A stretch of 64,000 nucleotides of DNA from a virus. Location: IMG/VR virus record IMGVR_UViG_3300043137_000338. One strand, written 5' to 3'. The notes beneath the pieces were generated by a model. That model worked only from the letters and a program-made list of their open reading frames with translations. It did no database searches and was not told the DNA's origin. This document shows positions 27,632 to 63,756 of this stretch, in pieces (within the stretch, counting starts at the first letter, position 1; every line of letters starts with the position of its first letter). Made by a program: the position numbers and the translations under genes.

Positions 27632-28988
27632 TGAGGAGTATTGCAGAAAGGTAGTTCCACATCTTAAGAAAGAATACTTTGCGGATCGCAAAGATGCTAT
27701 GATCGCAAGTCTTGTTGTTTCCTTCTTCACGAAGTACAATAAGACAGCATCTACAGAAATTCTGGCTATTGAGATCGCCAACCTCAAGGGGTTGACTGAC
27801 AAAGAAGTCCCAGAATATACTGAATATCTTCAAAGTCTAAACACTCAAGAAAAGAACCAAGAATGGCTGCTTGAGCAAACAGAGCAATTCTGTAAAGACC
27901 GAGCAGTTTACAACGCCATTCTTGCTTCCATTAAAATCATTGAAGGAAAAGACCAAGTCCACAGTAAGGATGCGATCCCTTCATTGTTGTCTGAAGCACT
28001 TGGCACTTGCTTTGACAATCACATTGGTCATGATTACATTGAGAATGCTGAGGAACGATTTGACTTCTATAACAGAATAGAAGAAAAGATTCCGTTCGAT
28101 TTGGAGATGTTTAACCTTATCACTAAAGGTGGTCTGTCTCGTAAAACTCTAAACATTGCGCTTGCCGGCACTGGTGTTGGTAAGTCTTTGTTCATGTGTC
28201 ACGTGGCAGCTGGTGCACTAACCAAGGGTAGAAATGTCTTATACATAACTATGGAAATGGCTGAGGAGCGCATCGCAGAACGTATTGACGCGAATCTCTT
28301 GAACCTGACCATGGATGAATTGAAGGTTGTTGATAGAGAAGTCTTCAATACGCGTATTGGTAAAATCGCTAAAAAGACTCAAGGTAAGCTAATCGTCAAA
28401 GAGTATCCTACTGCATCAGCGCACGCTGGACATTTCCGTGCCTTGTTAGAAGAGCTAAAGCTAAAGCGAGAATTCATCCCTGACATTATCATGATCGACT
28501 ATTTAAACATCTGCGCTTCTCAACGTATGAAGCAGGGAGCGAATGTAAATTCTTATACATATGTAAAGGCAATCGCTGAAGAGCTTCGTGGTCTGGCAGT
28601 AGAGTACAACGTTCCGATTATTTCGGCAACTCAAACTACCAGAGGTGGTTTCACGAATAGCGATCCAGGATTGGAAGATACTTCAGAATCATTCGGCTTG
28701 CCTGCCACTGCTGACTTTATGTTTGCCTTGGTATCAAACGAAGAACTTGAGCAGTTGAATCAGATCATCGTTAAGCAATTGAAGAACCGTTACAATGATC
28801 TGAACTACTATAAGAGATTTGTTCTTGGTATTGATCGCTCGAAGATGAAACTCTATGATGTTGAGATTTCTGCTCAAGAAGGTTTGTCCGACGCAGGTAA
28901 ACGAAGCCATGATGACGGTCCGATGTTTGATAAGAGTGAATTCGGTAAACGGTTGAAGACAGATGGCTACGAAGGTTTTAAGTTCTAA
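27591..28988 (+). CDS. 41: replicative DNA helicase gp41 (DnaB-like)
   Basis: Walker A LAGTGVGKS, YITMEMAEERIAERIDANLL and the VKAIAEELRGLAVEYNVPIISATQ arginine-finger region parallel T4 gp41; intact, no intein. Confidence 0.88.
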   Translation: MTLEKTILSNLINNEEYCRKVVPHLKKEYFADRKDAMIASLVVSFFTKYNKTASTEILAIEIANLKGLTDKEVPEYTEYLQSLNTQEKNQEWLLEQTEQFCKDRAVYNAILASIKIIEGKDQVHSKDAIPSLLSEALGTCFDNHIGHDYIENAEERFDFYNRIEEKIPFDLEMFNLITKGGLSRKTLNIALAGTGVGKSLFMCHVAAGALTKGRNVLYITMEMAEERIAERIDANLLNLTMDELKVVDREVFNTRIGKIAKKTQGKLIVKEYPTASAHAGHFRALLEELKLKREFIPDIIMIDYLNICASQRMKQGANVNSYTYVKAIAEELRGLAVEYNVPIISATQTTRGGFTNSDPGLEDTSESFGLPATADFMFALVSNEELEQLNQIIVKQLKNRYNDLNYYKRFVLGIDRSKMKLYDVEISAQEGLSDAGKRSHDDGPMFDKSEFGKRLKTDGYEGFKF

Positions 28989-28998
28989 GGAGAATTAT

Positions 28999-30300
28999 AT
29001 GGTAAAGGTTATTGTCGCTGATAGAAAACATGATTGCACTCATTTGTTGGGTCAATTTCTAGACGAGTCTCACTACGATGTTCTGTTGGAAGAAGATTGT
29101 GATGTGTACGCTCCGCCAGAATATGGTGATTCGATTGAGAATAAGGACGAGCGTAGAATCATCATGAAGTTTCGCAAGAACTTCTTCACCAAAGAACAGC
29201 AGGATGCTGCCTATGCAGGTCTACGTGAAGCTGCCATCGAAACTCAGAACAGAGGTTTGGCTGCAGGTCCGCGTGCTGATAAGTTAGGCAATCGCGATTG
29301 GGTCACTGAGTATGAGTATGACATGGTTGACTATTTTCTCAAGCCAACTGGTAACCTGTTCGGCGAAGATCCAGTAGAAGAAATTCGTAAGAAGCATGCT
29401 TCTAAGAAAGGTGTCATCTCGAATCGTTCCAATGTATGGTCCATTGACCGTGTTCAGAAAGATAAGTTCAACTTTGAAGCATGGGTAGATGCCACTAAAA
29501 TTCTTTCCGAGGATGAGCAGATTGCTTCCGCCAAGTACGTGGCTGAGAAACTGATCTGCGCCACCACCTATGCTAACTCTGTTAACTCTGGTATTGCTGG
29601 TTGGTTCGATCGCTATCCACGCATCCCTTATGGTCGCGCCACTTCTTATACTCAGAAGAATCCTGAGAAGTTTGCCATGGCTTTTCCTTTCCTACAAACC
29701 CTTGCTGCTGGATTTAAAGATTTGCTCCCATGGCGTTATGGGAATCAAATGGAAGCTGCTTCGAAGATTGATAAGCAATTCCTGGTTCCTGGAACACCAT
29801 TCACCACTGTAACTGTTAACAAAACTTTCCGCACAGCTGCTCACTACGATGCCGGTGACTTGACTAGCGGGTTGTCTAACTTGTTGACTCTATCCAACGA
29901 TGGTCGTTACAGCGGTGCTTACCTTGTTGCACCTGAGTATCGTGTAGCTGTTAACGTTCGTCCCGGTGATTTGCTTCTGATCAACAACCATGAAGTTATG
30001 CACGGAAATACTCCTATCGTCTGTCAAGAAGGTTCTGAGCGTATTTCGCTTGTGGTTTACTTCCGTGAGAAGATGCTTGAGCTCGGTACTAAGGAATATG
30101 AAGACTGTCGATTTGACTTTGTTGAATCTCGTCGTCTAAATAAAGAACATCCAGAGTGGCGTCCACTCTGGAATGGTGTTGGTTCTGGTATGTGGGAAAG
30201 CCAAGACTGGTATGACTACCTAGAATCGAAGATGGGAACTACTGTTTTGCAGAAGTATCATCCAGACTCTGTTAAATCTTCGCTTGAAGACTTCTTTTAA
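28999..30300 (+). CDS. 2OG-Fe(II) dioxygenase-like protein (possible nucleic-acid base oxygenase)
   Basis: HxD AAHYDAGD and distal His NNHEVMHGNTPI; ATG 28999 with AAGGAG. Confidence 0.45.
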   Translation: MVKVIVADRKHDCTHLLGQFLDESHYDVLLEEDCDVYAPPEYGDSIENKDERRIIMKFRKNFFTKEQQDAAYAGLREAAIETQNRGLAAGPRADKLGNRDWVTEYEYDMVDYFLKPTGNLFGEDPVEEIRKKHASKKGVISNRSNVWSIDRVQKDKFNFEAWVDATKILSEDEQIASAKYVAEKLICATTYANSVNSGIAGWFDRYPRIPYGRATSYTQKNPEKFAMAFPFLQTLAAGFKDLLPWRYGNQMEAASKIDKQFLVPGTPFTTVTVNKTFRTAAHYDAGDLTSGLSNLLTLSNDGRYSGAYLVAPEYRVAVNVRPGDLLLINNHEVMHGNTPIVCQEGSERISLVVYFREKMLELGTKEYEDCRFDFVESRRLNKEHPEWRPLWNGVGSGMWESQDWYDYLESKMGTTVLQKYHPDSVKSSLEDFF

Positions 30301-30314
30301 ACTGAAAGATAATT

Positions 30315-31661
30315 ATGAAAATTTTAATGGTAATGCATACGTTCAATAACTTCGGTGGTATCATCAATCACTGTGAACATTTGATGGCTGGTTTAAAAGA
30401 GCTTGGTCACGAAGTTAACTTTGCATATTTGAAGGGTAATAAAACTGTTCGCCCAGTTCAGATTCCTGAAACGCTGGGTGAAGGATGGGAGATTGGTGTT
30501 GGCTCAGGTTATCCTGTCCACCAGGGTGATGGTTGGATGGCACCTTACTACTCTTACAAAGTTAAAGAGTCTATCAATAAATTCGTTGAGGATGCTAACA
30601 AACATGACATCGTAATCTGGCAATCTATCTTTGGATTTAAGAACAAAGACACTGAGAAAGATGTCAACTGGCTGCCGATGATCGAGAAGGTTAAAGCGAA
30701 ACAAGTTGCCATTATTCATGACGGTAATCTGAAGAAGTTGTATACTTGGATTCAATTGTTCGAACAACATTTTGCAGGTCTGGCATGTGTGCATCCTGCA
30801 GCGTATGATTCAGCTGACTTCATGAACGTTCCGCGTGCAATGATTCTGAACCCACAAGACATCGCTGGTATTCCTGAGACTCCAAGATATGCTGGTCGTG
30901 AGAACAAGATCCTTTCTATTCAAACATTCAAGCGTTGGAAGCGTGTTGATGACTTAGTTCGTGCAGTTCCACACATGCCAATGGTTAAAACTCTGGTAGG
31001 TGGTTATGGTATGGAAGCTGCATACATGATGTCCAAGGAAAAGTGTAAGGAAGAATACTACTGTACGAAGGAGTATGATCCAGATGCAACTGACAAAATG
31101 TTGGGTAAGCGTATCTGGGAAAATGCTGAAAACTCTGGCACCTTCGACTACCTTGGCTTTATCTCTGGCGGTAAGCGTGATGAGATCCTAACTACATCTA
31201 AATTTCTTGTAGATCCAAGCTGGTCAAATACCTATGGCGAGCATTTCAACCGTGTGGTGATTGATGCCATGCGTATTGGTACTGTTCCCATTGCAATTAA
31301 CTACGGTGTTTCCAACAACGAAGAAGGTAATGGAGTTGTTCTAAAGGCAGGTATCAATTATTGTATGTTGAAGCGTTCTTATACACCAAGACAATACGCT
31401 GAAAAAATCACAGAGTACTGCGATATGAGCCCAGAAGCATACAAACAGATTCAGTTGAACAACTATGAACTGATTAAACAGTTTGATCGTAAGGTGATCG
31501 CTCAGCACTATGTCGATCTCGCAATGGGTAAGCAAACTGGTTATCTAAATGAATTGAAGACCAAATCTAATCACGACCCTAAGCTGCCAAAGCTGGCTCG
31601 TAAAATGTTTGATGAACACTTTGAAGATAACACTGTAGATCTAGAATCTTTCTTTGGTTGA
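30315..31661 (+). CDS. GT-B fold glycosyltransferase (GT4-like)
   Basis: N-terminal MKILMVMHTFNNFGG..HEV motif and C-terminal E..E nucleotide-sugar motif NTYGEHFNRVVIDAMRIGTVPIA. Confidence 0.65.
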   Translation: MKILMVMHTFNNFGGIINHCEHLMAGLKELGHEVNFAYLKGNKTVRPVQIPETLGEGWEIGVGSGYPVHQGDGWMAPYYSYKVKESINKFVEDANKHDIVIWQSIFGFKNKDTEKDVNWLPMIEKVKAKQVAIIHDGNLKKLYTWIQLFEQHFAGLACVHPAAYDSADFMNVPRAMILNPQDIAGIPETPRYAGRENKILSIQTFKRWKRVDDLVRAVPHMPMVKTLVGGYGMEAAYMMSKEKCKEEYYCTKEYDPDATDKMLGKRIWENAENSGTFDYLGFISGGKRDEILTTSKFLVDPSWSNTYGEHFNRVVIDAMRIGTVPIAINYGVSNNEEGNGVVLKAGINYCMLKRSYTPRQYAEKITEYCDMSPEAYKQIQLNNYELIKQFDRKVIAQHYVDLAMGKQTGYLNELKTKSNHDPKLPKLARKMFDEHFEDNTVDLESFFG

Positions 31662-58337: not shown

Positions 58338-58398
58338 GGGAGTATGGCGCAGCGGACTTTTAATCCGTTGGTCGAGGGTTCGAATCCCTCTGCTCCTA
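58338..58398 (+). ncRNA. 61-nt tRNA-like element lacking a D-arm (anticodon-loop-like CTTTTAA)
   Basis: Acceptor GGGAGTA/TGCTCCT, anticodon-like arm, T-arm GAGGG TTCGAAT CCCTC and ACCA, but only 7 nt where the D-arm should be. Confidence 0.4.
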
Positions 58399-58651: not shown

Positions 58652-59254
58652 ATGTTTATTTGTAAATACTGTAGTAAAGATTGCAACAAAAGGTCACATA
58701 AAAATCATGAATTAAGGTGTCCTAAAAATGCAAACAGGGAATATAAAAATGGAATGTTAGGTAAGAAGGGTAGTAATCAATACACAAAATCAAAATCATT
58801 GTGTATTGAGCCGCCAGTATATGACAGATCTAACTGGAAAAGAGGTGGGGCAGCAGCTTGGTCTACCGAAGAAAGATCAGAAAATGCTAAAAAGCAAGGG
58901 TTCGGTGGTTATAGAGAAAACGCTGGTAACTCGAAGAAGTTTCGAGTTATTGACTCGTTTGGAAAAGAAACTACACTTCAAAGTTCTTATGAATTTAGGT
59001 GTAGTGAGATTTTAAATGAACTTGGTATAAAATGGATTAGACCTAAAGCGTTGAAATATGATAATAGGAATTACTTTGCAGATTTTTATCTTCCAGATTT
59101 AGATATCTGGCTTGACCCAAAGAATAGCTATAAAGCAAAACATGACGAAGAAAAGATAAGAAAGGTCATTGAGCAAAACTCTGTTAGATTGTTTGTTCTT
59201 CTGGAACACCAGCTATCTAAAGAATATATTGGGAGATTAGCTGAGACGGATTAG
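58652..59254 (+). CDS. putative homing endonuclease (Cys-rich N-terminus, PD-(D/E)XK/Vsr-like C-terminus)
   Basis: CKYCSKDC..H..C zinc motif; ..FADFYLPDLDIWLDPK.. nuclease-like core; uses the shared endonuclease-gene cassette. Confidence 0.45.
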   Translation: MFICKYCSKDCNKRSHKNHELRCPKNANREYKNGMLGKKGSNQYTKSKSLCIEPPVYDRSNWKRGGAAAWSTEERSENAKKQGFGGYRENAGNSKKFRVIDSFGKETTLQSSYEFRCSEILNELGIKWIRPKALKYDNRNYFADFYLPDLDIWLDPKNSYKAKHDEEKIRKVIEQNSVRLFVLLEHQLSKEYIGRLAETD

Positions 59255-59355
59255 CAGTGTCTTGATAAGGCACAGAGGTTGGATCGTTACCAACATCTTC
59301 TACCAGTAGATTAGTAAGACAGAGGATCGTTACCTCTACTGGGAACCAGATTTAT

Positions 59356-59426: not shown

Positions 59427-59635
59427 CCAGTTTTAGGATCATTTCAGCAAACTTAAAAACTTTCTTTTATCCAGAAACTAAAAAGTTGATCCTGTTATTT
59501 TCAATTCCGCAGAACCCGAGCATGGTGCATGGGCTTGACTGTTAATCAATGTTTAGCTGGGATCGTTACCCAGATGCGGAGCCAAATATCGCCTTGACTG
59601 ATGGCGTACAATGAGATAAGTAATCAGTCACCTAT

Positions 59636-59707
59636 GCCTCGTTAACTCAGCGGTAGAGTGTCTCCCTTACAAGGAGAAGGTCGGCGGTTCGAACCCGTCA
59701 CGAGGTA
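59636..59707 (+). tRNA. tRNA-Val (UAC)
   Basis: Acceptor GCCTCGT/ACGAGGT, anticodon loop CTTACAA, T-loop TTCGAAC, CCA encoded. Confidence 0.7.
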
Positions 59708-59716
59708 CCAAATTTC

Positions 59717-59790
59717 GCGTCTTTAGCACAACTGGATAGTGCACTGGGCTACGAACTCAGAGGTTGGGGATTCGAATTCCTCAGGACGCA
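59717..59790 (+). tRNA. tRNA-Arg (ACG)
   Basis: Acceptor GCGTCTT/AGGACGC, anticodon loop CTACGAA, CCA encoded. Confidence 0.7.
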
Positions 59791-59800
59791 CCAAACAAAT

Positions 59801-59889
59801 GGAAAGTAATGCAGCGGGGTTGGTCCTGCGACCAGCCTTGAAAACTGGGTTCTCAGAAATGGGATGGGGTTCGACTCCTCTGCTTTCCG
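59801..59889 (+). tRNA. tRNA-Ser (UGA), type II
   Basis: Acceptor GGAAAGT/GCTTTCC, anticodon arm CCAGC CTTGAAA ACTGG, long variable arm, CCA encoded. Confidence 0.7.
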
Positions 59890-59898
59890 CCAAATTAT

Positions 59899-59981
59899 GG
59901 AGTGAATGGAACAATGGTGTTCTAGCTGGCTGTAACCCAGTGGCACTTCGGTGCAGGTAGGTTCGATCCCTACTCACTTCA
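59899..59981 (+). tRNA. tRNA-Tyr (GUA), type II
   Basis: Anticodon arm GCTGG CTGTAAC CCAGT, variable hairpin GCAC TTCG GTGC, CCA encoded. Confidence 0.65.
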
Positions 59982-59990
59982 CCAAGTTTT

Positions 59991-60098
59991 AGGATACTTA
60001 CAGCAAAACTAACTCAAACGTTAGGTAACTGGTTCGACTCCAGTTTCACGCAATAGCGCGAATAGCTCATTCGGTAGAGCAGACGAAGAAAGTATCCT
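59991..60098 (+). ncRNA. circularly permuted tRNA-like element closed by a 9-bp inverted repeat
   Basis: Order is anticodon-like hairpin, T-arm ACTGG TTCGACT CCAGT, 3' acceptor TTCACGC-A, 3-nt spacer, 5' acceptor GCGCGAA, D-arm TA GCTC ATTCGGTA GAGC; flanked by AGGATACTT (59991-59999) and AAGTATCCT (60090-60098). Confidence 0.4.
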
Positions 60099-60108
60099 GT
60101 TATTCAAT

Positions 60109-60193
60109 GGAAGCGTGGCAGAGTGGTCTATTGTATCTGTCTAGAAAGCAGCCGACTCGAAAGGGTCCGTGAGTTCGAATCTCACCGCTTCCT
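60109..60193 (+). tRNA. type II tRNA (Ser-like), anticodon loop CUAGAAA (nominal anticodon AGA; identity uncertain)
   Basis: Acceptor GGAAGCG/CGCTTCC, D-loop GAGTGGTCTAT, variable hairpin GACTC GAAA GGGTC, T-loop TTCGAAT. Confidence 0.5.
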
Positions 60194-60223
60194 CCCTTGA
60201 GTTGATGTCAAGACTCGAACTTT

Positions 60224-60249
60224 TATAAATAGTTACATAGGAGGAAACT
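60224..60249 (+). promoter_or_regulatory. late promoter TATAAATA + AGGAGGAAAC cassette
   Basis: CTTTTATAAATAGTTACATAGGAGGAAACTATG. Confidence 0.7.
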
Positions 60250-60876
60250 ATGTACTATACTGTTTATAAAATAACGAATCGAATCAATGGTAAGATCTAT
60301 ATTGGATCACATAAAACCAAAGATTTGAATGACAATTATATGGGTTCTGGAAAGTATCTTAAATACTCTCAAGAGAAGCATGGTATAGAAAATTTTACCA
60401 AAGAAATTCTTTTTGTTTTTGATACTCCAGAACTTATGTACGCAAAAGAAGCTGAGATTGTTAATGATGAATTCCTTGCTGAAGAAAATACATACAATCT
60501 AAAGCTAGGTGGATATGGTGGGTTTGATTATCTAAATGCTTGGAAGGAAAATCCGACACATTCTGCTGACCATTACTTAAAGATGTCTTTGCGATTGAAA
60601 GAAAAATATCCAAATAGTCCTATGTACGGACGTAAACATTCTGAAGATTCTAAAAGTAAAAACAGTCAATCTAATCTTGGTAATCAAAGGTTTCTTGGGC
60701 GTAAACATTCTGACGAAACTAAACAAAAAATGCGCTATAGCGCATTGGAAAAACATAGTAAAGATAAAAATTCGCAGTTCGGAACTATGTGGATAACCGA
60801 TGGTTTGGAAAACAAAAAGATCAATAAACTACACGAAATTCCTGATGGTTGGCGTCGTGGTAGAGTGATAAATTAA
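60250..60876 (+). CDS. GIY-YIG homing endonuclease (SegB-like, in tRNA cluster)
   Basis: YKITNRINGKIYIGSHK GIY-YIG motif, repeated NUMOD3-like GRKHSEDSK / GRKHSDETK. Confidence 0.8.
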   Translation: MYYTVYKITNRINGKIYIGSHKTKDLNDNYMGSGKYLKYSQEKHGIENFTKEILFVFDTPELMYAKEAEIVNDEFLAEENTYNLKLGGYGGFDYLNAWKENPTHSADHYLKMSLRLKEKYPNSPMYGRKHSEDSKSKNSQSNLGNQRFLGRKHSDETKQKMRYSALEKHSKDKNSQFGTMWITDGLENKKINKLHEIPDGWRRGRVIN

Positions 60877-60902
60877 GTATCTTCGCATACTTCAGATGGG
60901 TC

Positions 60903-60931
60903 TTGACTTTTGATGAATTGTGTAGTAGAAT
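60903..60931 (+). promoter_or_regulatory. sigma70-type promoter TTGACT..N18..TAGAAT
   Basis: Preceded by hairpin AAGTATCTTCGCATACTT 60876-60893. Confidence 0.45.
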
Positions 60932-61038
60932 AGAAACATATGAATATGAATGGGAAGAACAAGAACTTGTTCTTTCGTTGATTAACAAATGGAGAAACGG
61001 TGATCGATTCTCTGCTAATGATTATAGGAGGAAGTCAC

Positions 61039-61618
61039 ATGCCAGCAGTATTTTTAGTATCTGACACACACTTTCGGGCATAGTGGAGTATGCAGATTCA
61101 CTGAGGCAGACGGAGTGACTAAGATTCGACCGTGGACTGATCCAGAAGAAATGGATGAGGAAATGGTCAAGCGATGGAACGAAACCGTCAAGCCAAACGA
61201 CAAGGTTTATCACTTAGGTGACGTTGTCATTAACCGCAAGTCGTTAAGTATTATGAGCCGGTTAAATGGTGACAAGGTTCTGATCAAGGGTAACCATGAC
61301 ATCTTCAAGTTAGAGGAATATACTCAATACTTCAGAGACATTCGTGGTAGTCATGTGATGAACGGTATGATTTTAACTCATATCCCTCTGCATCCAAGAC
61401 AATTATATCGTTTCGGTACTAACATTCATGGTCACTTACATACCAATCGTGTTATGTTTGACGACAAGGAAATGGGTGAGATTATCGATCCGCGTTACTT
61501 CTGTGTTTGCGTTGAACAAACAGATTTTCGCCCTATCTTATTTGAAGACGTAATTAAGCGTATCAAAGAACAGGGTGGTACCGTGGGTTTCAAGAACGGT
61601 AATGGTCCAGTGATGTAA
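61039..61618 (+). pseudogene. calcineurin-like metallophosphoesterase interrupted by a +1 frameshift at UUU CGG G (61072-61078)
   Basis: Frame 1 gives MPAVFLVSDTHF then R A stop; frame +1 continues GHSGV.. and carries GNHD and GHLH motifs; removing C61075 restores DTHFGH. Confidence 0.6.
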
Positions 61619-61730
61619 GAATTGGAAGATGATCTCGGTGCTTCCGTTCTCCCGAGTTAGAATAACTGATATCGTTTCAGTAAGACGGAGCCAAATTTAG
61701 GAGGATTACGGTTTCGTAAACTGTTATTTT

Positions 61731-61767
61731 TATAAATAGATGTATACTAATTATAAGGAGAAACAGT
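61731..61767 (+). promoter_or_regulatory. late promoter TATAAATA + AAGGAGAAAC cassette
   Basis: TTTTTATAAATAGATGTATACTAATTATAAGGAGAAACAGTATG. Confidence 0.65.
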
Positions 61768-62181
61768 ATGAATACTAACGAAAAGGGTGTCCGTGGTTTA
61801 ATTAAAGTAATTGACGATCTACAGAGCAATGGTTATTATGTATTTAATGCATTCGATGATCATTCTCCTGTGGATGTTATAGCGATGGATAAAACTGGAA
61901 AAACATTCAGGATTCAGATAAAGTATCGTCAAGCCACTGTAAAAAAGAACAAAGGCAACACATACAATCTTGGAGCGTTTTCCATAGTTAATTCTAAAAA
62001 AATTGAAATAGATCGTAGTTTAATCGATGGATGGGCAGTATATATGGCAGACGATAATAAAGTTGTGTATATTCCTGTTAAATCTATGGAAGGTAAAAAA
62101 GAAACTACGTTATATGGTAGTGAAGTTTATGGAGAGTTGACAGAGTGGCAATGTGCTGGTTTGCTAAACCAAGACCACTGA
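61768..62181 (+). CDS. putative PD-(D/E)XK-like nuclease (mobile endonuclease candidate); its last 51 nt are the 5' part of tRNA-Ser
   Basis: ..DVIAMDK..FRIQIK.. D..(D/E)xK-like core; the C-terminal residues ..YGELTEWQCAGLLNQDH are encoded by the tRNA-Ser(GCU) acceptor, D and anticodon arms. Confidence 0.45.
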   Translation: MNTNEKGVRGLIKVIDDLQSNGYYVFNAFDDHSPVDVIAMDKTGKTFRIQIKYRQATVKKNKGNTYNLGAFSIVNSKKIEIDRSLIDGWAVYMADDNKVVYIPVKSMEGKKETTLYGSEVYGELTEWQCAGLLNQDH

Positions 62182-62217
62182 GTAATCGGTGCAAGCGTTC
62201 GATCCGCTTACTCTCCG
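62131..62217 (+). tRNA. tRNA-Ser (GCU), type II
   Basis: Acceptor GGAGAGT/ACTCTCC, anticodon arm CTGGT TTGCTAA ACCAA, T-arm AAGCG TTCGATC CGCTT, CCA encoded. Confidence 0.7.
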
Positions 62218-62228
62218 CCAAGAAGTAT

Positions 62229-62317
62229 ACCTCGATAGTTTAACGGTAAAACGGCGGATTTATATCCCGTAAGCAACAGATAATTGGTTCATCCGAGTTC
62301 GATTCTCGGTCGAGGTA
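62229..62317 (+). tRNA. 89-nt tRNA-like gene, anticodon loop TTTATAT (UAU, Ile/AUA) with 22-nt variable region
   Basis: Acceptor ACCTCGA/TCGAGGT, D-arm GTTT AACGGTA AAAC, T-arm CCGAG TTCGATT CTCGG, CCA encoded; extra length unexplained. Confidence 0.45.
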
Positions 62318-62325
62318 CCATATAT

Positions 62326-62399
62326 GCCCTGGTGACGGAATTGGTATACGTGCTTGACTCAAAATCAAGATTTTGTGGGTTCGAGTCCCACCTGGGGCA
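62326..62399 (+). tRNA. tRNA with anticodon CAA (nominally Leu) but a short type I variable loop
   Basis: Acceptor GCCCTGG/CTGGGGC, anticodon arm CTTGA CTCAAAA TCAAG, T-loop TTCGAGT, CCA encoded. Confidence 0.5.
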
Positions 62400-62411
62400 C
62401 CAAAGATGTGC

Positions 62412-62440
62412 TTGACTTTAAATCAAGTCTCATGTATAAT
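62412..62440 (+). promoter_or_regulatory. early promoter TTGACTTTAAATCA..N..TATAAT inside the tRNA cluster
   Basis: -35 62412-62417, -10 62435-62440. Confidence 0.6.
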
Positions 62441-62452
62441 AGCTGTATGAAA

Positions 62453-62533
62453 GCGAGAGTGGTGTAATGGCAGCCACAGGAGACTTAAAATCTCCCGCCG
62501 AAAGGCATGCGGGTTCGAGTCCCGCCTCTCGCA
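62453..62533 (+). tRNA. tRNA-Leu (UAA), type II
   Basis: Acceptor GCGAGAG/CTCTCGC, anticodon arm GGAGA CTTAAAA TCTCC, variable arm CGCCGAAAGGCATG, CCA encoded. Confidence 0.8.
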
Positions 62534-62545
62534 CCAAAGAATTTT

Positions 62546-62618
62546 CTGGCGTTCGTATAATGGATTAATACAGTGCTCTTCTAAAGCACGAATAGGGGTT
62601 CGATTCCCTTACGCCGGA
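62546..62618 (+). tRNA. tRNA-Arg (UCU)
   Basis: Anticodon arm GTGCT CTTCTAA AGCAC, T-loop TTCGATT, CCA encoded. Confidence 0.7.
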
Positions 62619-62628
62619 CCAGATTGAT

Positions 62629-62702
62629 GGGCTTCTAGCTCATGTTGGTTAGAGCAGCGAACTCATAATTCGTTGGTGCCGAGTTCGACTCTCGGGGAGC
62701 CC
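62629..62702 (+). tRNA. tRNA-Met/Ile2 (CAU)
   Basis: Acceptor GGGCTTC/GGAGCCC, D-arm TA GCTC ATGTTGGTTA GAGC, anticodon loop CTCATAA, CCA encoded. Confidence 0.75.
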
Positions 62703-62717
62703 ACCATAGAAATGTAT

Positions 62718-62792
62718 GTACGAGTGGCAGAGTGGTCAAATGCAACGGATTGCAAATCCGTAAAGTCGTGAGTTCGAATCTCACCTTGTACT
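62718..62792 (+). tRNA. tRNA-Cys (GCA)
   Basis: Anticodon arm ACGGA TTGCAAA TCCGT, T-loop TTCGAAT, CCA encoded. Confidence 0.65.
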
Positions 62793-62805
62793 CCAAAAAT
62801 TAGTG

Positions 62806-62862
62806 CTTGACTTTAATTCGCTTCTGTAGTAAAATAGGTGCTTAGGTTGAGTGAAGAAGTTG
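62806..62862 (+). repeat. 57-nt promoter repeat unit copy C
   Basis: GCTTGACTTTAATTCGCTTCTGTAGTAAAATAGGTGCTTAGGTTGAGTGAAGAAGTTG. Confidence 0.7.
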
Positions 62863-62888
62863 ATGTTGTTGGTTAGTTGCTACGAAGT

Positions 62889-62940
62889 GCTTGACTTTAA
62901 TTCGCTTCTGTAGTAAAATAGGTGCTTAGGTTGATTAGGA
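62889..62940 (+). repeat. 57-nt promoter repeat unit copy D (leader runs into the RBS of the next ORF)
   Basis: Identical to copy C through AGGTGCTTAGGTTGA, then TTAGGAGC. Confidence 0.7.
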
Positions 62941-62946
62941 GCTTAT

Positions 62947-63177
62947 ATGGGAATGATGAAAAACCTGGTTATTGACATCCAAGAATCTATTGAGCTTGGC
63001 GATGATTTTGACGAGATCGCTGATCGCTTTAATGTTAGCTTGGCTGATGTTGAAGCAATTGCTGATGCGATGGATTCTAGCTATGATGAATCAATGGACG
63101 GTGATCATGATTCTGCAATGGCTTCTGCTGGTTTTGGAACCGATGAAGATTACGGTTACGCTGGCGAAGATTTCTGA
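62947..63177 (+). CDS. small highly acidic protein
   Basis: 76 aa, D/E-rich; TAGGAG RBS. Confidence 0.45.
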   Translation: MGMMKNLVIDIQESIELGDDFDEIADRFNVSLADVEAIADAMDSSYDESMDGDHDSAMASAGFGTDEDYGYAGEDF

Positions 63178-63264
63178 AGCCCTCTCTGAGTCTTTACGTA
63201 AAGTCGGAAGCCTGAGGCACTAAGAAGGTTTGGATGTTTTTCCTCACACAAAAACATCCGTTAT

Positions 63265-63337
63265 GCTCTGTTCGTCTAACGGTTAGGACGCTGCCCTTTC
63301 AAGGCGGAAACGAGGGGTTCGATTCCCCCACGGAGTA
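63265..63337 (+). tRNA. tRNA-Glu (UUC)
   Basis: D-arm GTCT AACGGTTA GGAC, anticodon arm CTGCC CTTTCAA GGCGG, CCA encoded; preceded by hairpin GGATGTTTTT..AAAACATCC 63231-63259. Confidence 0.65.
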
Positions 63338-63347
63338 CCAGAATTTT

Positions 63348-63419
63348 GGGCTGATAGTGATAATGGGAGCACAGGGGCTTTGCAAGCCTTTAGTCGGGGT
63401 TCGATCCCCCGTCGGTCCA
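63348..63419 (+). tRNA. tRNA-Ala (UGC)
   Basis: Anticodon arm GGGGC TTTGCAA GCCTT, T-loop TTCGATC, CCA encoded. Confidence 0.65.
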
Positions 63420-63427
63420 CCAAATAT

Positions 63428-63499
63428 GCGTTGTAAACTTTGATGATGAAGTCCCGGCTCTTAACCGGCGAGAAGAAAGTTTGACTCTTTCACGACGCA
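63428..63499 (+). tRNA. tRNA-Lys (CUU), atypical T-loop TTTGACT
   Basis: Acceptor GCGTTGT/ACGACGC, anticodon arm CCGG CTCTTAA CCGG, CCA encoded. Confidence 0.5.
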
Positions 63500-63512
63500 C
63501 CAAGTTTTCAAT

Positions 63513-63586
63513 CCGAGTGTAGCGCAGTCTGGTAGCGCATCTGCTTTGGGAGCAGGAGGTCGTAGGTTCGAATCCTACTACTCGGA
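63513..63586 (+). tRNA. tRNA-Pro (UGG)
   Basis: D-arm TA GCGC AGTCTGGTA GCGC, anticodon arm TCTGC TTTGGGA GCAGG, CCA encoded. Confidence 0.75.
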
Positions 63587-63674
63587 CCACAGTTTTTAGG
63601 ATAGTTTCTGCAAATTATACAGACTACTCAAATTGGATTGTCTTAGTCGACAACACTATCCTGTTGTATTTAAT

Positions 63675-63756
63675 GGAGATGAAGCATCAATGGTGATGCA
63701 GTGGACTGTAAATCCGCCGCCCTCGGGCACGACTGGTTCGATCCCAGTAATCTCCA
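63675..63756 (+). tRNA. second tRNA-Tyr-like (GUA), type II
   Basis: Acceptor GGAGATG/AATCTCC (one mismatch), anticodon arm GTGGA CTGTAAA TCCGC, variable hairpin GCCC TC GGGC, CCA encoded. Confidence 0.55.

What the first reader, a model, noticed from the sequence alone, without database searches (positions are those of the whole stretch)
59430..63675. Recurrent inter-tRNA spacer element with conserved ends and variable interior
Right after the CCA of three tRNAs the same ends recur around unrelated interiors of 50-110 nt. The copies are 59430 (ccaGTTTTAGGATCATTTCAGCAAA ... GTTGATCCTGTTATTTTCAATTCCG), 59985 (ccaaGTTTTAGGATACTTACAGCAAAA ... AAGTATCCTGTTATTCAATGGAAG) and 63590 (ccacAGTTTTTAGGATAGTTTCTGCAAA ... 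CACTATCCTGTTGTATTTAATGGAGATG). In each copy the AGGATNNT and ANNATCCT ends are mutually complementary, so each element can close into a stem. These look like a family of structured spacer RNAs, processing signals or small mobile cassettes. One copy carries the permuted tRNA pieces.
Basis: seen in the sequence. Interest (0 to 1): 0.6.

Follow-up and report, generated by a model that had tools for sequence, protein, structure and literature searches.

The report
Phage Y-RNA-like scaffolds displaying tRNA parts
The three repeated "spacers" in this phage's tRNA cluster belong to a large family of small structured RNAs, absent from Rfam 15 and from the papers I could search, that resemble Y RNAs, carry tRNA-like pieces on a constant stem, and are genetically tied in other phages to a Ro60-like RNA-binding protein.

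Summary
Three copies of TTTAGGATNNTTNCNGCAAA lie in the window (0.09 expected by chance). Each starts 1-3 nt after a tRNA's CCA and closes with the complementary NNATCCTG.

The copies belong to a large phage-specific RNA family. A covariance model finds 176 copies in 0.9 Mb of viral contigs. The 8-bp closing helix is 99% paired, with compensatory changes at 6 of 8 pairs. A C-N-G-C-A-A loop motif and a G-U-U tail are nearly invariant.

The interiors are swappable tRNA parts. There are three kinds:
- anticodon-arm-like hairpins;
- tRNA bodies;
- permuted T-arm/acceptor/D-arm modules, as in bacterial YrlA (copy 2 of the window).

Rfam 15 has no family for the scaffold.

Best reading: these are Y-RNA-like partners of a divergent Ro60-like protein, released from tRNA-cluster transcripts. 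Binding and function are inferred. The partner gene is not in this window, because the contig ends inside the tRNA cluster.

The parts
59430..59505 (+). Copy 1 (short form): the whole spacer between tRNA-Gly and the next tRNA-like gene
   Evidence: Covariance model R1 hit at 59429-59501, 75.1 bits, E 3.5e-13. Sequence read.
59434..59441 (+). Copy 1, 5' strand of the closing helix (UAGGAUCA). It pairs with 59487-59494 (UGAUCCUG).
   Evidence: Minimum-free-energy fold. Family covariation.
59445..59450 (+). Copy 1, invariant loop motif CAGCAA
   Evidence: In alignment A4 the first C and the G-C-A are in 150 of 150 rows and the last A in 148; only the second base varies (A 135, C 8, U 7).
59461..59477 (+). 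Copy 1, distal hairpin: 5-bp stem UUUCU/AGAAA with the 7-nt loop UUUAUCC. It has anticodon-arm geometry, with a U at loop position 2 but no purine at position 6.
   Evidence: Folds.
59985..60108 (+). Copy 2 (long form): the whole spacer between tRNA-Tyr and tRNA-Ser
   Evidence: R1 hit at 59985-60106, 43.7 bits, E 2.3e-06. Fold z-score -3.7.
59990..59997 (+). Copy 2, 5' strand of the closing helix (UAGGAUAC). It pairs with 60092-60099 (GUAUCCUG). The loop motif CAGCAA is at 60001-60006.
60019..60085 (+). Copy 2, permuted tRNA-like module. It consists of a stem CGUU/GACG (60019-22 with 60082-85), T arm 60028-60044, acceptor-like hairpin 60045-60062 and D arm 60065-60080.
   Evidence: Rfam YrlA (RF02553) matches 60020-60088 to model positions 23-89: 30.7 bits, below the gathering score of 69; E 0.0012 in the 6.5-kb scan and 3.3e-05 in the 181-nt scan.
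63590..63674 (+). Copy 3 (short form): the whole spacer between tRNA-Pro and the next tRNA
   Evidence: R1 hit at 63592-63670, 51 bits, E 6.1e-08.
63597..63604 (+). Copy 3, 5' strand of the closing helix (UAGGAUAG). It pairs with 63656-63663 (CUAUCCUG). The loop motif CUGCAA is at 63608-63613.
63622..63648 (+). Copy 3, interior hairpin (GACU(A)/(U)AGUC), followed by the conserved CGACAA
   Evidence: Eight-member subfamily alignment A5: two of its four pairs show compensatory changes.

Best explanation
The three elements are genes for small non-coding RNAs of a Y-RNA-like family.

**Anatomy (shown).** Each RNA has a constant scaffold:
- a 5' UUU tail;
- an 8-bp closing helix that starts with a U.G pair;
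- an asymmetric internal loop, with NUN-C-N-G-C-A-A on the 5' side and an A-rich run on the 3' side;
- a 3' G-U-U tail.

The scaffold carries an exchangeable distal module made of tRNA parts. Copies 1 and 3 carry hairpins. Copy 2 carries a permuted T-arm/acceptor/D-arm domain, as in bacterial YrlA.

**Production (inferred).** The RNAs are transcribed as part of the polycistronic tRNA precursor. They would be set free by the enzymes that trim the flanking tRNAs: RNase P at the downstream tRNA, and 3'-end processing of the upstream one.

**Partner (inferred from genetics).** The constant scaffold is the binding site for a phage-encoded Ro60-like protein of about 473 aa (Pfam DUF2828+DUF7788: a helical-repeat domain plus a vWA domain with a MIDAS motif). 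The CNGCAA loop would play the part of the GNCGAA/CGAA motif of canonical Y RNAs.

**Role (inferred by analogy).** The variable module decides what the RNP engages. Candidates are tRNA-handling or RNA-repair/decay enzymes, or host nucleases that attack tRNAs. Copies lying 20-34 nt before the protein's start codon probably also let the protein regulate its own mRNA.
For: **1. A real family.**
- 87 of 131 exact 5'-motif matches in viral contigs have the complementary NNATCCT 29-208 nt downstream.
- Model R1 finds 176 copies at E<=1e-3 in 907 kb of viral loci.

**2. A real structure.** Counted on 149 distinct copies:
- 99% of cells are paired, against 81% in shuffles.
- 6 of 8 pairs show double changes.
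- 198 cells are compensatory, against at most 24 in the slid-partner controls.
- Independent stem variants occur: AGAAU/AUUCU, AGGUU/AACCU, AGGAA/UUCCU, AGGCU/AGCCU, GGGAU/AUCCC.

**3. Y-RNA architecture.** The elements have a terminal stem, an internal loop with a conserved motif and a variable distal part. The tRNA-like interiors hit Rfam YrlA: the window at 30.7 bits, L045 at 36.7 bits, and Mycobacterium phage DirkDirk at 39.8 bits, right beside its 'RNA-binding protein' gene.

**4. The partner gene, starting from the RNA.** The commonest ORF family in the RNA-selected loci (25 of 72) is DUF2828+DUF7788.

**5. The partner gene, starting from the protein**.
- 63 of 79 protein-selected loci contain copies.
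- All 116 copies are on the gene's strand, and 113 are upstream of the gene.
- In 47 of 74 loci a copy ends 20-34 nt (94 nt in one) before the matched start.

**7. The same pairing in cultured phages.**
- Synechococcus phage BUCT-ZZ01: three tandem copies before the gene.
- Four Felix-O1-like phages: four copies each, three short and one with a permuted tRNA-like insert, right after the gene.
- Campylobacter phage CPX: two copies.
- Listeria phage LP-048: three copies, with RtcB and an RNA ligase nearby.

**8. Precedent in the literature.**
[quoted passage not shown] Each has a stem and a bulge with a CGAA motif (PMC12135203).
- Bas63 gp130 is Ro60-like, lies upstream of the tRNAs and counters the Ppl defence. 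The authors guessed that some of the 'tRNAs' are Y RNAs (PMC11482910).

**9. Co-transcription in the window.** No promoter-like site lies before any of the three copies and no terminator-like site lies after them.
Against: - The partner gene is not in the window: tblastn finds nothing and there are no TROVE or DUF2828 Pfam hits. The contig ends 92 nt past the window, inside a tRNA. Its presence in this genome therefore rests only on synteny with L122.
- No binding, expression or processing data exist for any member.
- The canonical Rsr motif GNCGAA is absent, and the outer stem does not match the YrlA model.
- All YrlA hits are below Rfam's gathering score.
- The protein model is only moderate (pLDDT 64). 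Sequence similarity to TROVE proteins is marginal (E 0.27).
- The protein-selected loci are 68-100% identical to the query, so they are not phylogenetically independent.
- Aeromonas phage phiAS5 has the gene but no copy within 6 kb.
Confidence: 0.7

Rival explanations
1. The elements are cis-acting spacers of the tRNA precursor. They would be folding insulators or recognition sites for a processing nuclease, helping to cut tRNAs apart, and would have no life of their own after processing.
For: - 130 of 174 distinct copies directly follow a CCA end.
- The U-rich flanks resemble endonuclease-sensitive trailers; this resemblance is my own reading.
- No promoter or terminator of their own lies next to the window copies.
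Against: - A quarter of copies do not follow a tRNA.
- Tandem copies sit before a protein gene at fixed spacing.
- Most inter-tRNA spacers in the same clusters, including this window, lack the element.
- The elements carry conserved, covarying interior modules.
- The tie to one protein family is reciprocal.
Confidence: 0.12
2. The scaffold is mainly a cis-regulatory leader of the DUF2828 gene, for translational autoregulation. The copies in tRNA clusters would be duplicates without that function.
For: - 47 of 74 genes have a copy ending 20-34 nt (94 nt in one) before the start codon.
- In several gene-proximal copies the 3' tail runs into a purine-rich, Shine-Dalgarno-like stretch just before the start codon, for example GTGAGG in L026, AAAGG in L094 and GAAAAGGAA in L122.
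Against: - There are several copies per locus, most of them far from the gene (about 1.8 hits per hit-bearing locus in the protein-selected set; 176 hits in the 100 RNA-selected loci).
- The three window copies have no such gene within 64 kb.
- The distal modules are diverse and tRNA-like, which a simple operator would not need.

This reading is compatible with the main explanation for the gene-proximal copy only.
Confidence: 0.1
3. The elements are miniature mobile cassettes, MITE-like or homing-associated, that insert after tRNA genes. The complementary ends would be terminal inverted repeats.
For: - The ends are inverted repeats.
- There are many copies per genome, with different 'cargo'.
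- Homing endonuclease genes sit in the same clusters: GIY-YIG at 60250-60876 and PD-(D/E)XK at 61768-62181.
Against: - The ends covary to keep pairing rather than keeping a sequence.
- The element is asymmetric and, where strand could be compared, strictly strand-specific: 116 of 116 copies are on the gene's strand.
- I saw no target-site duplication in the flanks (GTTT... on the left...GTTAT on the right).
- The aquatic variant is essentially absent from 185,579 cellular genomes: one hit, on a 600-bp MAG contig.
Confidence: 0.03
4. The elements are self-cleaving ribozymes placed 3' of tRNAs, like the HDV-like 'theta' ribozymes of gut phages, which release the tRNA 3' end.
For: Only the position, immediately after the CCA of phage tRNAs. 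The comparison with theta ribozymes comes from my own knowledge of that work.
Against: - No Rfam ribozyme family matches at E<=1.
- The only covarying scaffold element is one simple helix, with no support for further pairing.
- The interior is freely exchangeable, which a catalytic core would not tolerate.
Confidence: 0.02

Closest known systems
Bacterial Y RNAs of the YrlA/YrlB type (Rfam RF02553; Chen et al. 2014, PMC4201824), partners of Rsr/Ro60
   Same: - The 5' and 3' ends pair into a stem.
- An internal loop holds a short conserved purine-rich motif near the 5' end.
- One paralogue per genome carries a permuted tRNA-like domain (T arm, closed acceptor-like stem, D arm), and shorter paralogues lack it.
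- The RNAs are encoded next to, and on the strand of, a Ro60-type protein gene.
   Different: - The motif is C-N-G-C-A-A, not G-N-C-G-A-A.
- The closing helix has its own consensus: UAGGAU.. in aquatic phages, AGACC.. in Felix-O1-like phages.
- All Rfam scores are below the gathering score.
- The partner protein is DUF2828+DUF7788, not a Pfam TROVE protein.
- Most copies sit inside tRNA arrays.
- Many short copies carry anticodon-arm mimics, which as far as I know are not described for Y RNAs.
Yrl1/Yrl2 of Thermus phage phiLo with phage Ro60 (PMC12135203)
   Same: - Phage-encoded.
- Two Y-RNA-like genes in tandem, directly upstream of the Ro60 gene.
- Stem-bulge-stem shape.
   Different: - phiLo has a canonical TROVE protein and a CGAA motif.
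- It has no link to tRNA arrays.
- It has no tRNA-part modules.
- Binding is shown experimentally for phiLo but not here.
Bas63 gp130 (Felix-O1-like coliphage), a Ro60-like counter of the Ppl defence (PhageMaP preprint, PMC11482910)
   Same: In both, a Ro60-like gene lies directly upstream of the tRNA cluster, as in SUSP2, VpaE1, Sf13 and HP1, where I find four scaffold copies each. I did not verify that gp130 is a DUF2828 homologue.
   Different: The paper identifies no RNA partner. It only suggests that some annotated tRNAs may be Y RNAs. The scaffolds found here lie between the tRNAs, or under a mis-called small ORF.
T4 stable RNAs species 1 and 2 (rnaC, rnaD)
   Same: They are small stable RNAs of unknown function, encoded within a phage tRNA cluster and released by tRNA-processing enzymes.
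   Different: Neither carries the scaffold motif or the closing helix.

Membership tests
YrlA (Rfam RF02553) | Scores at or above the Rfam gathering score (69 bits) | tested here: not met
   Window copy 2 scores 30.7 bits, over model positions 23-89 only. Copies 1 and 3 give no hit at E<=1. Relatives score 36.7 and 39.8 bits.
YrlA (Rfam RF02553) | Permuted tRNA-like domain: T arm, closed acceptor-like stem, D arm | tested here: met
   Met for copy 2 only (60019-60085), aligned to the YrlA consensus with posterior probability mostly 0.9-1.0. Copies 1 and 3 lack it, as YrlB does.
YrlA/YrlB Y RNAs | GNCGAA(N)G motif near the 5' end, the proposed Rsr recognition site (Chen 2014) | tested here: not met
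   The corresponding invariant is CAGCAA or CUGCAA. It occupies the same position relative to the stem but has a different sequence.
Y RNAs in general | The 5' and 3' ends form a stem enclosing an internal loop; size about 60-130 nt | tested here: met
   An 8-bp covarying terminal helix. Hit lengths run from 59 to 147 nt, with a median of 74.
Y RNAs in general | Encoded next to a Ro60/TROVE gene | tested here: inconclusive
   No such gene is in the window. In relatives the neighbour is DUF2828+DUF7788. That protein is Ro60-like by fold but is not a Pfam TROVE member, and its sequence similarity to TROVE proteins is marginal.
Y RNAs in general | Physically bound by Ro60 | not testable with these tools
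   This needs RIP/CLIP or gel-shift experiments.
Miniature inverted-repeat mobile element | Sequence-conserved terminal inverted repeats, target-site duplication, both orientations | tested here: not met
   The repeats covary. All 116 copies have one orientation relative to the gene. I saw no duplication in the flanks.
HDV-like/theta or other self-cleaving ribozymes 3' of phage tRNAs | Match to a ribozyme family; a conserved nested pseudoknot core | tested here: not met
   No ribozyme family matches at E<=1. There is a single helix with an exchangeable interior.

The most novel reading that the evidence does not exclude
The scaffold is a display platform. A phage Ro60-like protein holds a panel of RNAs, each presenting a different piece of tRNA.

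**What is shown.** Among 126 short copies, 60 end in a hairpin with a 7-nt loop that has U at position 2 and a purine at position 6. In 49 of these 60 the stem is exactly 5 bp. Shuffled interiors give only 4 such loops. The 'anticodon' positions most often read UUU, UGU, GUA, UCU, UGA and GGA, and they differ between copies within one phage. Other copies present whole tRNA bodies or permuted tRNA domains.

**What is proposed.** The RNP would act as a decoy or sensor for host anticodon nucleases and other defence systems. Alternatively, it would recruit repair enzymes to cleaved tRNAs. Either way it would be an RNA-based anti-defence arsenal.

**Support, and its limits.** From my own knowledge, several of the mimicked anticodons (Lys-UUU, Tyr-GUA, Arg) are targets of known tRNA-cleaving defences. 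Bas63 gp130 is reported to counter a defence system. Nothing here tests the decoy idea directly.
Probability: 0.25. Interest if true: 0.9.

Novelty: new variant of a known kind. Interest (0 to 1): 0.78.

Why it matters
**A named protein without a known RNA.** Homologues of the DUF2828+DUF7788 protein occur in 702 of 50,697 GenBank phage records. More than 7,400 were found among metagenomic proteins. In GenBank phage records they are labelled 'hypothetical protein', 'RNA-binding protein' or 'Ro-like RNA binding protein'. I found no paper in the searched library that names an RNA ligand.

**Candidate ligands.** This scaffold supplies concrete candidates, with exact coordinates in cultivable model phages: Felix-O1-like coliphages, Listeria P100-like phages, Campylobacter phages, cluster-L mycobacteriophages and a Synechococcus phage. 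It also corrects annotation, because some copies lie under small 'hypothetical protein' calls.

**Wider interest.**
- It extends the Y-RNA concept to a second, divergent Ro60-like lineage.
- It shows an unusual modular design in which tRNA parts, including anticodon-arm mimics, are swapped on a constant protein-binding handle.
- One homologue-bearing phage needs its Ro60-like gene to overcome a defence system. The family therefore gives a directly testable route to what phage Ro60-type RNPs do.

Tried and rejected
- **T4 species 1/2 RNAs.** I fetched rnaC and rnaD. Neither has the motif or the helix, so they are a different thing.
- **BLAST of a common short form against GenBank phages.** There was no match. 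The cultured-phage copies were found only through the protein, then with the model and a structure-aware scan.
- **Partner gene in the window.**
  - Pfam on 30 ORFs gave no TROVE or DUF2828 hit.
  - tblastn with P0028 gave nothing.
  - The contig (JGI 3300036944, 139 kb) stops 92 nt past the window, inside a tRNA.
  - A 29-mer from near the window's end has no match in viral contigs.
  - The contig's last 29 nt match 8 metagenome loci, which belong to other phages and lack the gene.
- **A longer closing helix.** The UU after the stem does not pair with the A/G before the 3' strand more often than in shuffles.
- **An alternative CAGCA/UGUUG pairing.** The Rfam YrlA alignment suggested it. I rejected it because it would cross the covarying helix with a zero-length linker. 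Also, the G it needs after GUU is not conserved (column 201: G 52, A 49, U 48).
- **Sequence-only homology to Ro60.** A profile search of the PDB gives only E 0.27, at the MIDAS region. The Ro60 link rests on the fold search.
- **Cellular distribution.** One hit in 185,579 genomes.

Full report
**1. The observation**

The window's last 6 kb is a phage tRNA cluster. ARAGORN tRNAs, all on the + strand, and Rfam adds a few more. The rest of the window encodes T4-type replication functions, a Tet/JBP dioxygenase with a glycosyltransferase, and ribonucleotide reductase. No close relative exists among GenBank phages.

The 5' pattern TTTAGGATNNTTNCNGCAAA occurs three times and nowhere else, even with two mismatches allowed. 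Shuffled sequence gives 0.09 matches. Each copy ends with the reverse complement of its own NN followed by ATCCTGTT. The result is an 8-bp helix that begins with a U.G pair.

**2. It is a family, and the helix is real**

Distribution:
- Of the 131 matches in those loci, 87 had the exact complement NNATCCT 29-208 nt downstream. A given 7-mer would turn up there by chance in under 2% of cases.
- A covariance model built from 55 short copies found 176 copies at E<=1e-3 in 907 kb of those loci. In the window it found only the three known copies.
- Ninety-seven distinct hits do not match the pattern used to find the family. They show new, compensated stem variants: AGAAU/AUUCU, AGGUU/AACCU, AGGAA/UUCCU, AGGCU/AGCCU, GGGAU/AUCCC, AGGGU/ACCCU.

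Covariation, counted on 149 distinct sequences:
- 99% of cells are paired, against 81% in shuffles.
- Six of eight pairs have double changes.
- 198 cells are compensatory, against at most 24 when the 3' partner is slid by 1-3 columns.
- The alignment was fitted to the model, so these numbers lean towards the structure. The independent stem variants do not depend on that.

Invariant features:
- the U.G closing pair;
- the loop motif C-N-G-C-A-A;
- the G that follows the 3' strand (150 of 150 rows), then U-U;
- a U-rich 5' tail.

The helix does not extend beyond 8 bp.

**3. What the interiors are**

About three quarters of copies are short (median hit length 74 nt). The rest carry inserts of 50-110 nt, most of them with a T arm.

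Copy 2 of the window has a T arm, a closed acceptor-like stem and a D arm, in that order. Rfam's YrlA model aligns to this part at 30.7 bits, below its gathering score of 69. Other long copies carry a tRNA body in the normal order, for example L045.

Short copies carry a hairpin. Of 126 short copies:
- 76 have a 7-nt loop, against 10 for shuffled interiors.
- 60 have U at loop position 2 and a purine at position 6, against 4 for shuffles.
- In 49 of those 60 the stem is exactly 5 bp, which is the geometry of an anticodon arm.
- The loops typically read CU-NNN-AA, with NNN = UUU, UGU, GUA, UCU, UGA, GGA and others.
- NNN differs between copies within one phage.

For the window's own short copies:
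- Copy 1 has the 5-bp/7-nt geometry but not the full signature.
- Copy 3 belongs to a subfamily whose interior hairpin covaries at two of its four pairs and is followed by a conserved CGACAA.

**4. The protein partner**

I clustered all ORFs of the 72 RNA-bearing loci. The commonest family, present in 25 loci, is a ~473-aa protein. It matches Pfam DUF2828 and DUF7788 and has a DxSGS MIDAS motif. It often lies immediately downstream of a copy on the same strand.

The reciprocal test used 79 loci selected by the protein alone. The results:
- 63 loci contain copies.
- All 116 copies are on the gene's strand, and 113 lie upstream of the gene.
- In 47 of the 74 loci with enough upstream sequence, a copy ends 20-34 nt (94 nt in one) before the matched start.

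Evidence that the protein resembles Ro60:
- Sequence similarity to solved structures is marginal: TROVE proteins at E 0.27.
- The AlphaFold model is helical at the N terminus and alpha/beta at the C terminus, with pLDDT 64.
- Homologues occur in 702 GenBank phage records, annotated 'RNA-binding protein', 'Ro-like RNA binding protein' or 'DUF2828'.
- More than 7,400 homologues were found among metagenomic proteins.

**5. Cultured phages show the same pairing**

| Phage | Scaffold copies | Context |
|---|---|---|
| Synechococcus phage BUCT-ZZ01 | One after a tRNA; three in tandem before the gene | Gene starts at L125 7001 |
| Felix-O1-like SUSP2, VpaE1, Sf13, HP1 | Four each; the fourth carries a permuted tRNA-like insert | Gene sits directly upstream of the tRNA cluster; the local stem type is AGACCNN-(N)UA-CAGCAA...NNGGUCUGG |
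| Campylobacter phage CPX | Two in tandem | Between the last tRNA and the gene |
| Listeria phage LP-048 | Three in tandem before the gene | RtcB and an RNA ligase downstream |
| Mycobacterium phage DirkDirk | One long copy after the gene | Coincides with a YrlA hit of 39.8 bits |

The counter-examples are mixed. A tRNA cluster in Erwinia phage Coenus has no such gene in the 6.7-kb stretch read and has no copy. Aeromonas phage phiAS5 has the gene but no copy within 6 kb.

The aquatic stem type is practically absent from cellular genomes. It gave one hit, on a 600-bp MAG contig, in 185,579 genomes.

**6. Comparison with what is known**

- Chen et al. (2014) define bacterial Y RNAs by a stem, a GNCGAA motif near the 5' end and, in YrlA, a tRNA-like domain. 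These RNAs are encoded beside Rsr.
[quoted passage not shown] Each has a stem and a bulge with a CGAA motif.
- The PhageMaP preprint reports that Bas63 gp130 is structurally Ro60-like, lies upstream of the tRNA genes and counters the Ppl defence. It guesses that some 'tRNAs' may be Y RNAs, but identifies none.

The present family has the same architecture and genetic logic. It differs in four ways:
- the motif is CNGCAA;
- the helix consensus is different;
- the partner family is DUF2828+DUF7788, not Pfam TROVE;
- the copies are embedded in tRNA arrays and carry anticodon-arm-like modules.

Rfam 15 has no model for the scaffold. My literature searches found no description of it. That library is incomplete, so prior description cannot be excluded. 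T4's rnaC and rnaD are not members.

**7. Mechanism, with its status**

Shown:
- The family exists, the helix is under selection, and the interiors are modular.
- The RNA and the gene are linked in both directions.
- The protein's predicted fold resembles Ro60.

Inferred:
- The RNAs are cut out of tRNA-cluster transcripts. No promoter-like site precedes the window copies and no terminator-like site follows them.
- The scaffold is the protein's binding site.
- The gene-proximal copy may allow autoregulation.
- The module selects the RNP's target.

Speculative: the RNAs act as decoys or repair platforms against tRNA-directed defences.

**8. Limits**

- The window itself lacks the partner gene, and its contig ends inside the tRNA cluster.
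- All Rfam YrlA hits are below threshold.
- The protein model is of moderate confidence.
- There is no experimental evidence for expression or binding of any member.

**Verdict.** This is a genuine, widespread family of phage non-coding RNAs that I could not find described. It is best filed as a new variant of Y RNAs, working with a divergent Ro60-like protein.

Noticed in passing
window 59231-59305, about 59306-59352, about 59506-59594: Three adjacent tRNA or tRNA-like genes have an unusual T-loop, GGATCGTTACC instead of GGTTCGAATCC. Neither ARAGORN nor Rfam calls the last two. The third has an Asn-like anticodon loop (CTGTTAA) and ends in GCCA.
   Followed up: no
window 58338-58398, 63675-63756, 59801-59888: Rfam calls tRNAs at 58338-58398 and 63675-63756 that ARAGORN misses. 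At 59801-59888 there is a sub-threshold match to the tRNA-Sec model (33.9 bits against a gathering score of 47), possibly a long-arm tRNA.
   Followed up: no
window 62803-62850 and 62887-62934: A 48-nt direct repeat. Each copy carries a near-consensus TTGACT-17-TAAAAT promoter, just before the small acidic ORF at 62947-63177.
   Followed up: no
window 62229-62320: tRNA-Ile(TAT) is 92 nt long, so it has an insertion relative to a normal class I tRNA.
   Followed up: no
window 58652-59254, 60250-60876, 61768-62181: Three endonuclease-type ORFs are interspersed in the tRNA cluster. One is GIY-YIG/NUMOD3 (SegE-like), one is a PD-(D/E)XK endonuclease, and one is a 200-aa ORF with no Pfam match. The arrangement resembles homing endonucleases in the T4 tRNA region.
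   Followed up: partly
window 28963-31661: A Tet/JBP-family dioxygenase is followed by a group-1 glycosyltransferase. This suggests hypermodified (hydroxymethylated and glycosylated) DNA bases.
   Followed up: no
L129 4469-5020 (Listeria phage LP-048): A ROOL RNA match (90 bits, gathering score 99) lies inside the tRNA cluster, about 650 nt upstream of the three scaffold copies.
   Followed up: no
L125 2780-3076 (Synechococcus phage BUCT-ZZ01): A permuted tmRNA (112 bits) is encoded in the same tRNA region as the scaffold copies.
   Followed up: no
L126 6832-7002 (Escherichia phage SUSP2) and the counterpart in HP1: Small annotated 'hypothetical protein' ORFs overlap scaffold copies and a tRNA. 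They are probably mis-annotations.
   Followed up: partly
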